DNA from: Escherichia coli
GTDB taxonomy: Bacteria > Pseudomonadota > Gammaproteobacteria > Enterobacterales > Enterobacteriaceae
Reading direction: 5' to 3' (one strand)
Length of the DNA: 64,000 nt
Assembly: GCF_030013595.1 (NCBI RefSeq)
Contig: NZ_CP122768.1
In this document: one piece after another, positions 53,734 to 53,764 of the stretch
How the letters are laid out: each line of letters begins with the position of its first letter
How positions within the stretch are numbered: position 1 is the stretch's first letter
Program-made: the position numbers and the translations under genes
Notes under the pieces: generated by a model
The model's database searches: none
What the model was told of the DNA's origin: nothing
Seen by the model: the letters and a program-made list of their open reading frames with translations, nothing else

Positions 53734-53764
53734 AATTACTCTCGTTAACGTGGCGAGAGTAATT
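53734..53764. other. Perfect 11-bp inverted repeat (aattactctcg ... cgagagtaatt) just after gspM
   Basis: Stem 53734-53744 / 53754-53764 with 9-nt loop; no U-tract on either side. Confidence 0.4.

What the first reader, a model, noticed from the sequence alone, without database searches (positions are those of the whole stretch)
53734..53764. Perfect 11-bp inverted repeat immediately downstream of gspM
The palindrome aattactctcg-N9-cgagagtaatt lies 26 nt after the gspM stop and lacks a U-tract on either strand. It could be an atypical terminator for the long gsp transcript or a protein-binding site at the junction between the gsp operon and the tRNA.
Basis: seen in the sequence. Interest (0 to 1): 0.2.

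Follow-up and report, generated by a model that had tools for sequence, protein, structure and literature searches.

The report
Ordinary hairpin after the gsp operon
The palindrome is real but is an ordinary, single-copy, E. coli-specific stem-loop in the short gap between a secretion operon and a phenylalanine tRNA gene remnant, most likely a minor RNA 3'-end hairpin and nothing new.

Summary
The perfect 11-bp inverted repeat with a 9-nt spacer is at 53734-53764, 26 nt after the gspM/yghD stop. It folds stably: -16 kcal/mol on the + strand and -12 on the - strand. The locus is the yghD-pheV gap of the E. coli T2SS-beta cluster, and K-12 carries the identical 138 nt.

- There is no tRNA gene in the window. 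Only a 22-nt pheV 3' fragment is present (53857-53878), the repeat at the end of an inserted island.
- The hairpin does have a U-rich tail, but on the - strand (pheV direction).

The palindrome is single-copy and invariant in 2462 of the 2512 complete E. coli genomes (of 5426 searched) that carry it. It is absent from kps-capsule E. coli and from four other Escherichia lineages. Their unrelated sequences after yghD each carry their own stable hairpin.

Published K-12 3'-end maps list no RNA end at the palindrome on either strand.

Best reading: a routine 3'-end RNA hairpin between convergent genes. On gsp mRNA it would be a U-less protective stem-loop. On pheV read-through RNA it would be a weak back-up terminator. 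A functionless palindrome remains plausible. Interest is low.

The parts
53172..53708 (+). gspM/yghD, the last gene of the T2SS-beta operon (sslE-pppA-gspS2-gspC..M)
   Evidence: ORF. RefSeq annotates the matching genes as 'GspM family type II secretion system protein YghD' in 99% identical genomes.
53709..53808 (.). 100-bp lineage-specific segment that contains the palindrome. It is present only in E. coli without the kps cluster at this site.
   Evidence: kps strains diverge right after the yghD stop and keep only 53809-53846 next to pheV. No homologue was found in the kps flanks or outgroups, in plasmids or in phages.
53720..53733 (-). U-rich tail that follows the hairpin on the - strand (UUAUUGAUAUUAAU). 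On the + strand it is the A-rich tract upstream of the stem.
   Evidence: Tail score -3.83 against -1.52 for the + strand tail.
53734..53744 (.). Left arm of the palindrome, AATTACTCTCG
53745..53753 (.). Spacer or loop, TTAACGTGG. On the + strand RNA it adds U-G, U-G and A-U pairs, leaving a 3-nt loop.
   Evidence: The G53750A variant lies here.
53754..53764 (.). Right arm of the palindrome, CGAGAGTAATT
   Evidence: The T53764C variant affects only the outermost pair.
53810..53848 (-). pheV intrinsic terminator: a 12-bp GC-rich stem followed by UUUUUGCUUUU. Read on the + strand it is a hairpin with a weak U-rich tail, so it may be bidirectional.
   Evidence: A Rho-associated position at MG1655 3110486(+) maps to about window 53812 (PMC7815308 Supplementary file 2).
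53857..53878 (-). 22-nt 3' fragment of tRNA-Phe (pheV) with a 1-nt deletion. It is the direct repeat at the far end of an island integrated into pheV.
   Evidence: Island genes follow from 53989 onwards (DUF4942, CbtA/YeeU and others).

Best explanation
The palindrome is a routine RNA-level stem-loop in the 148-nt gap between two convergent transcription units: the T2SS-beta operon ending in gspM/yghD (+ strand) and pheV (- strand; here only its terminator and a 22-nt remnant remain beside the operon).

On the gsp mRNA it forms a stable hairpin with no U-tract, 26 nt after the stop. This is the kind that sits at the steady-state 3' ends of transcripts terminated further downstream. Termination would come from Rho or from the hairpin at 53820-53848, and the RNA would then be trimmed back by 3'-5' exonucleases.

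On the opposite strand the same DNA gives an 11-bp hairpin followed by a U-rich tail. That makes it a weak second terminator about 50 nt behind the strong pheV terminator, which would limit antisense read-through into the gsp genes.

Shown: the sequence, the folding, the tail asymmetry, the single-copy status and the phylogenetic distribution. Inferred: any effect on termination or RNA stability.
For: - Stable local structure: -16.1 kcal/mol, z = -5.9 on the + strand and z = -3.3 on the - strand.
- Classic position, 26 nt after the last stop codon of an operon.
- Tail asymmetry: U-rich on the - strand only (-3.83 against -1.52).
- Five other lineages (kps-positive E. coli, Escherichia sp. E1V33, E69, E. 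whittamii, E. albertii) carry about three sequence types after yghD that are unrelated to the window's. Each has its own stable hairpin 26-50 nt after the stop; at most 3 of 100 shuffles are as stable. A hairpin is therefore the recurring feature, not this particular sequence.
- Dar and Sorek 2018 (PMC6061677) describe stable stem-loops without U-tracts as the normal 3' ends of Rho-dependent E. coli transcripts.
- Adams et al. 2021 (PMC7815308) report Rho-sensitive read-through past the pheV terminator in K-12, whose sequence is identical here. Transcription on the - strand therefore does reach this region.
- The two variants seen among 2512 genomes hit the loop and the outermost pair only.
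Against: - No curated Term-seq 3' end lies within MG1655 3110500-3110799 on either strand.
- Bicyclomycin raises coverage downstream of pheV about six-fold. The hairpin is therefore not an efficient Rho-independent block on the - strand.
- The stem is AU-rich (4 G-C pairs of 11). The - strand loop is 9 nt, and the consensus terminator scan calls it on neither strand.
- An A-rich tract precedes the stem on the + strand, which is atypical for Rho-type protective hairpins.
- About 1570 E. coli genomes and all outgroups sampled do without the palindrome.
- Conservation carries no weight. Intergenic diversity is only 1-3%, and zero common SNPs in 31 nt is expected by chance about one time in three (my estimate from the SNPs seen).
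- No covariation test is possible.
Confidence: 0.5

Rival explanations
1. The palindrome has no function. It is a neutral, chance or relic palindrome inside a 100-bp lineage-specific filler segment at a recombination-prone junction (yghD / kps / pheV islands).
For: - About 0.55 such perfect repeats are expected per shuffled 64-kb window, and a third of shuffles have at least one.
- The segment is absent from kps-positive E. coli and from the other Escherichia lineages.
- Invariance is explained by low diversity.
- No 3' end is mapped at it in K-12.
- Some strains have lost it or truncated it through IS events, with no consequence visible from the sequence alone.
Against: - The real window has about 9 times more such repeats than shuffles, so most are not chance.
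- The chance of one falling in this particular 148-nt gap is about 0.001.
- Unrelated 3' flanks in other lineages also carry a stable hairpin at the same place.
Confidence: 0.3
2. It is a genuine factor-independent terminator for the gsp operon on the + strand.
For: A stable hairpin lies 26 nt after the stop. U-less hairpins can occasionally pause or terminate RNA polymerase.
Against: - The tail CCCCCAGACUUUAUA scores -1.52, far from terminator range.
- The consensus scan does not call it.
- A better candidate lies 55 nt downstream at 53820-53848, with tail score -3.02 on the + strand.
- No 3' end is listed for it in K-12.
Confidence: 0.08
3. It is a DNA binding site (operator) for a dimeric protein, or a site-specific recombination or IS target site at the operon/island junction.
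For: The symmetry is perfect and the half-sites are 20 bp apart centre to centre, about two helical turns. One strain has an IS66-family element abutting the right arm.
Against: - It is single-copy: 2526 places in 2512 genomes.
- A metagenome-wide scan for the arms with any spacer of 0-20 nt returned only the same locus plus 4 unrelated hits, about what chance gives (my estimate).
- It does not coincide with the kps junction boundaries at 53709 and 53808.
- It is not part of the island attachment repeat, because island-free K-12 has the identical sequence.
- No candidate binding protein is known.
Confidence: 0.07

Closest known systems
Protective 3' stem-loops of Rho-dependent E. coli transcripts (Dar and Sorek 2018, PMC6061677)
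   Same: An energetically stable stem-loop shortly after the coding region, with no U-rich tail on the mRNA strand and a run of C immediately downstream (CCCCC).
   Different: An A-rich tract precedes the stem. There is no overall excess of C over G downstream (19 C and 19 G in 92 nt). No 3' end, Rho dependence or exonuclease dependence has been measured here.
Intrinsic (Rho-independent) terminators, including tandem back-up and bidirectional terminators between convergent genes
   Same: On the - strand there is a hairpin followed directly by a U-rich tail, behind the strong pheV terminator. It lies between convergent transcription units.
   Different: The stem is AU-rich (4 of 11 pairs are G-C) with an AU-rich base and a 9-nt loop. 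The consensus scan does not call it. K-12 data show that Rho accounts for most termination of read-through here, and no 3' end is mapped at the palindrome.
REP/BIME and other repeated extragenic palindromes
   Same: An extragenic palindrome after a stop codon that could stabilise an upstream mRNA.
   Different: It is single-copy, has no match in Rfam, and has no sequence relation to REP.

Membership tests
Intrinsic terminator (+ strand, gsp operon) | Stable stem-loop | tested here: met
   -15.4 to -16.1 kcal/mol, z = -5.9
Intrinsic terminator (+ strand, gsp operon) | U-rich tract of 7-8 nt directly after the stem | tested here: not met
   The tail CCCCCAGACTTTATA scores -1.52. The scan does not call it.
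Intrinsic terminator (- strand, pheV read-through) | Stem-loop with a short loop and a GC-rich stem | tested here: inconclusive
   11-bp stem with only 4 G-C pairs, a 9-nt loop, -12.0 kcal/mol. It falls outside the scan's loop limit of 3-8.
Intrinsic terminator (- strand, pheV read-through) | U-rich tract directly after the stem | tested here: met
   TTATTGATATTAATC scores -3.83, between the top 1% and top 3% cut-offs for window 15-mers. That is comparable to the pheV terminator tail, -3.14 to -4.69.
Intrinsic terminator (either strand) | RNA 3' end mapped at the end of the U-tract or stem in vivo | tested here: not met
   There are no curated 3' ends in MG1655 3110500-3110799 on either strand in Adams et al. 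2021. The K-12 sequence is identical. The K-12 operon is truncated and probably poorly expressed, so this is weak evidence for the + strand.
Protective stem-loop of Rho-dependent transcripts | Stable stem-loop that is not followed by a U-rich sequence | tested here: met
   (+ strand)
Protective stem-loop of Rho-dependent transcripts | No A-rich tract upstream, and C over G enrichment downstream (rut) | tested here: inconclusive
   AAUAAAA precedes the stem. CCCCC follows it, but C equals G (19 each) over 53765-53856.
Protective stem-loop of Rho-dependent transcripts | Bicyclomycin-sensitive termination downstream, and PNPase/RNase II trimming back to the stem | not testable with these tools
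   This needs RNA-seq or Term-seq with and without BCM, and pnp/rnb mutants, in a strain that expresses T2SS-beta.
Repeated extragenic palindromes (REP/BIME, MITE-like) | Many copies per genome | tested here: not met
   2526 places in 2512 genomes. One copy in the window with up to 3 mismatches allowed. No Rfam match of note.
Island attachment site (pheV att repeat) | Part of the repeat created by integration, and absent from empty sites | tested here: not met
   The identical palindrome is present in island-free K-12 and HS next to intact pheV. The repeat itself is at 53857-53878.
Transcription-factor operator | Recurrence of the half-sites at other loci or in orthologous loci, and a cognate regulator | tested here: not met
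   Only the same locus recurs, plus 4 chance-level hits in metagenomes. It is absent from orthologous loci of the other Escherichia lineages.

The most novel reading that the evidence does not exclude
The palindrome might be a DNA-level site: a protein operator, or a preferred target or breakpoint for mobile elements. It would sit at the hyper-variable yghD / kps / pheV-island junction and influence how capsule clusters or islands are swapped there. The IS66-family end abutting its right arm in one strain would then be a first hint.
Probability: 0.04. Interest if true: 0.4.

Novelty: new member of a known kind. Interest (0 to 1): 0.08.

Why it matters
It matters little. At most it refines the 3' boundary of the T2SS-beta (sslE/gsp) transcript and shows how the operon is insulated from the strongly transcribed convergent pheV.

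The more useful corrections concern context.
- The window holds no tRNA gene here, only the attachment-site remnant of a pheV island.
- The 100 bp carrying the palindrome are an alternative junction allele, replaced in capsule (kps) strains and in other Escherichia lineages.

Tried and rejected
- **Rfam at a permissive E-value over 53000-54500:** only sub-threshold noise.
- **Consensus terminator and promoter scan:** it calls the pheV terminator but not the palindrome.
- **Homology of the 100-bp segment:** nothing in plasmids (the one hit is a mis-filed chromosome), in phages, in the kps flanks or in the outgroup loci.
- **Orthologous loci by YghD protein in one genome per species:** only 4 Escherichia loci were found, and none has the palindrome. 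Covariation analysis was therefore impossible.
- **Outer GGGGG/CCCCC helix (53701-53705 with 53765-53769) predicted:** variants break it without compensation (GGGGA in 14EC020, L019 and L060; CACCC in L022 and L035). I reject it as a conserved feature.
- **Published 3'-end data:** only Adams et al. 2021 had searchable supplements with this region. Dar and Sorek 2018, PMC9023263 and PMC7547250 had no held supplements, and the TERMITe paper (PMC12207403) had no entry.
- **Yang et al. 2007 on gsp operon transcription:** the paper is not held.
- **IHF-like consensus near 53725:** checked by eye, no match.

Full report
**Observation**

The sequence reads AATTACTCTCG (53734-53744), TTAACGTGG (spacer) and CGAGAGTAATT (53754-53764), exactly as reported. 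The gspM/yghD ORF ends at 53708, so the palindrome starts at the 26th base after the stop.

As RNA, the + strand forms a 14-bp stem with a 3-nt loop, because the spacer adds U-G, U-G and A-U pairs. Its energy is -15.4 kcal/mol, or -16.1 with flanks (z = -5.9, 0 of 200 shuffles). The - strand forms the 11-bp stem with a 9-nt loop at -12.0 kcal/mol.

Perfect inverted repeats of this size (at least 11 nt, 3-30 nt apart) are expected 0.55 times per shuffled 64-kb window, and the real window holds five. The repeat is therefore not rare in itself, but most such repeats in this DNA are not chance.

First, there is no tRNA gene anywhere in the window. What lies at 53857-53878 on the - strand is a 22-nt copy of the 3' end of tRNA-Phe (pheV) with a 1-nt deletion. 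It is followed by island genes: DUF4942, DUF957, CbtA/YeeU, a JAB-domain protein, an antirestriction protein and others. This is the far-end direct repeat of an island integrated into pheV. The intact gene must lie beyond the window.

Second, the hairpin is not free of a U-tract on both strands. On the - strand the stem runs straight into UUAUUGAUAUUAAU. Its tail score is -3.83, between the top 1% and top 3% cut-offs for window 15-mers and similar to the real pheV terminator tail. The + strand tail CCCCCAGAC... scores -1.52.

**Locus identity**

The region is the yghD-pheV gap at the end of the E. coli T2SS-beta cluster (glcA-sslE-pppA-gspS2-gspC..L-yghD). K-12 and many other strains carry the identical 138 nt. 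In island-free strains, intact pheV sits convergent to yghD, 148 nt away.

The pheV intrinsic terminator is at 53848-53810 on the - strand. The coordinate mapping is MG1655 = 3110441 + (53857 - window position), which places the palindrome at MG1655 3110534-3110564.

**Distribution**

- The palindrome is present once in 2512 of 5426 complete E. coli genomes, and 2462 of them are identical over all 31 nt.
- The variants I could inspect are G53750A in the loop and T53764C at the outermost pair.
- One strain has an IS679 end abutting the right arm, with deletion of what followed.
- Common SNPs of the intergenic region all fall outside the palindrome. With 1-3% diversity, however, zero SNPs in 31 nt is expected about one time in three (my estimate), so this is not evidence of selection.
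- About 1570 further genomes keep only 53809-53846 (the pheV terminator) next to pheV. In these strains the sequence diverges immediately after the yghD stop and leads into the kps group 2 capsule cluster. PMC2808357 notes the same yghD-kps arrangement.
- Escherichia sp. E1V33, 'E. coli' E69, E. whittamii and E. albertii also lack the palindrome.
- The 100 bp at 53709-53808 have no detectable relative in those loci, in plasmids or in phages.
- A metagenome-wide scan for the two arms with any spacer of 0-20 nt returned 38 copies of this same E. coli locus and 4 unrelated hits. By my rough estimate that is about chance level for a 22-base pattern.

The palindrome is therefore a single-locus feature specific to one allele. 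It is not a repeat family or a regulon motif.

**Function**

The informative comparison is between non-homologous alleles. Every version of the DNA after yghD carries its own stable local hairpin beginning 26-50 nt after the stop. This holds for this allele, for the kps-flank types in HM670/E1V33 and in E69/E. whittamii, and for the E. albertii type. Energies range from -14.8 to -22 kcal/mol in 40 nt, and at most 3 of 100 shuffles are as stable. A 3' hairpin, not this particular sequence, is the recurring feature.

Stable hairpins without a U-tract are the normal steady-state 3' ends of Rho-dependent E. coli transcripts, where they block PNPase and RNase II (PMC6061677). The + strand anatomy fits that class, apart from an upstream A-rich tract. 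That A-rich tract is the U-rich tail of the - strand hairpin. On the - strand the element therefore looks like a weak intrinsic terminator about 50 nt behind the strong pheV terminator.

**Published data from K-12 (identical sequence)**

- The mature pheV end is at 3110443(+).
- A Rho-associated position lies at 3110486(+), which is about window 53812. Its Rho score is 7.4. Downstream versus upstream reads were 50 versus 4606 untreated and 293 versus 3667 with bicyclomycin.
- There is no curated 3' end between 3110500 and 3110799 on either strand.
- An orphan 3' end lies at 3111489(+), about 1 kb further on (PMC7815308).

Some transcription on the - strand therefore passes the pheV terminator, and Rho, not the palindrome, stops most of it. 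Nothing ends detectably at the palindrome in K-12. For the + strand this is weak evidence, because the K-12 operon is truncated and probably barely expressed (the low expression is my background knowledge, not tested here).

**Verdict**

- The best-supported reading, at a confidence of about 0.5, is a routine hairpin between convergent transcription units. It would be protective on gsp mRNA and a weak back-up terminator for pheV read-through.
- A functionless palindrome in a lineage-specific filler segment remains a serious alternative (about 0.3).
- A protein-binding or recombination role has no support (about 0.07).
- A true intrinsic terminator on the gsp strand fails the U-tract test (about 0.08).

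It is an unannotated but ordinary member of a known kind, and interest is low.

Noticed in passing
window 53857-53878 (- strand) and 53879-64000: The window has no tRNA gene. A 22-nt pheV 3' fragment with a 1-nt deletion marks the end of a CP4-like island (DUF4942, DUF957, CbtA/YeeU, JAB/RadC-like, antirestriction, DUF932 and others) that runs to the end of the window. The intact pheV and the integrase must lie beyond 64000.
   Followed up: partly
window 53709-53808; loci L003, L004, L005-L008: The DNA right after the yghD stop exists as alternative alleles. One is this 100-bp segment. Another is the kps group 2 capsule flank, in about 1570 E. coli genomes and in Escherichia sp. E1V33, E69 and E. 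whittamii. A third type occurs in E. albertii. Even the stop codon differs (TAA versus TAG). The origin of the 100-bp segment is unknown.
   Followed up: partly
window 53720-53732 and 53893-53905: A 13-nt inverted pair, ATTAATATCAATA / TATTGATATTAAT, brackets the palindrome, the pheV terminator and the tRNA fragment (blastn-short E about 0.07). The left arm is chromosomal and is also present in island-free K-12. The right arm is island DNA. It is probably chance.
   Followed up: no
L016/L061 (E. coli UMNF18) and L014 (E. coli MB22): In UMNF18 an IS679 (IS66 family) end abuts the palindrome after CGAGAGT. The terminator, the tRNA fragment and part of the DUF4942 gene are deleted. In MB22 an IS1A sits at the equivalent of about window 53787, and the palindrome side is missing.
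   Followed up: partly
L018 (E. coli MFDS1022581), equivalent to window ~53701-53705: A 1-nt deletion in the G-run at the end of yghD shifts the frame. The annotated gene is 552 nt instead of 537 nt.
   Followed up: no
window - strand ~53812 and ~52809 (MG1655 3110486 and 3111489, + strand there): Published K-12 data show Rho-sensitive read-through past the pheV terminator. They also show an orphan 3' end about 1 kb further on, antisense to the gspL remnant. Antisense transcription into the gsp genes from pheV therefore exists.
   Followed up: partly
window 12494-12528, 41828-41861, 2372-2397, 62100-62128: These are the other perfect inverted repeats of 11-15 nt in the window. The one at 41828-41861 (GGCGCATCGGG-N12-CCCGATGCGCC) lies just after the sslE-sized ORF that ends at 41788 and looks like another gene-end hairpin.
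   Followed up: no
L062 7883-8293 (strain 126096), equivalent to window ~42820-43230: RefSeq marks gspS2 (the pilot lipoprotein GspS-beta/YghG) as a pseudogene with an internal stop in the closest complete genome. I did not check whether the window shares this.
   Followed up: no
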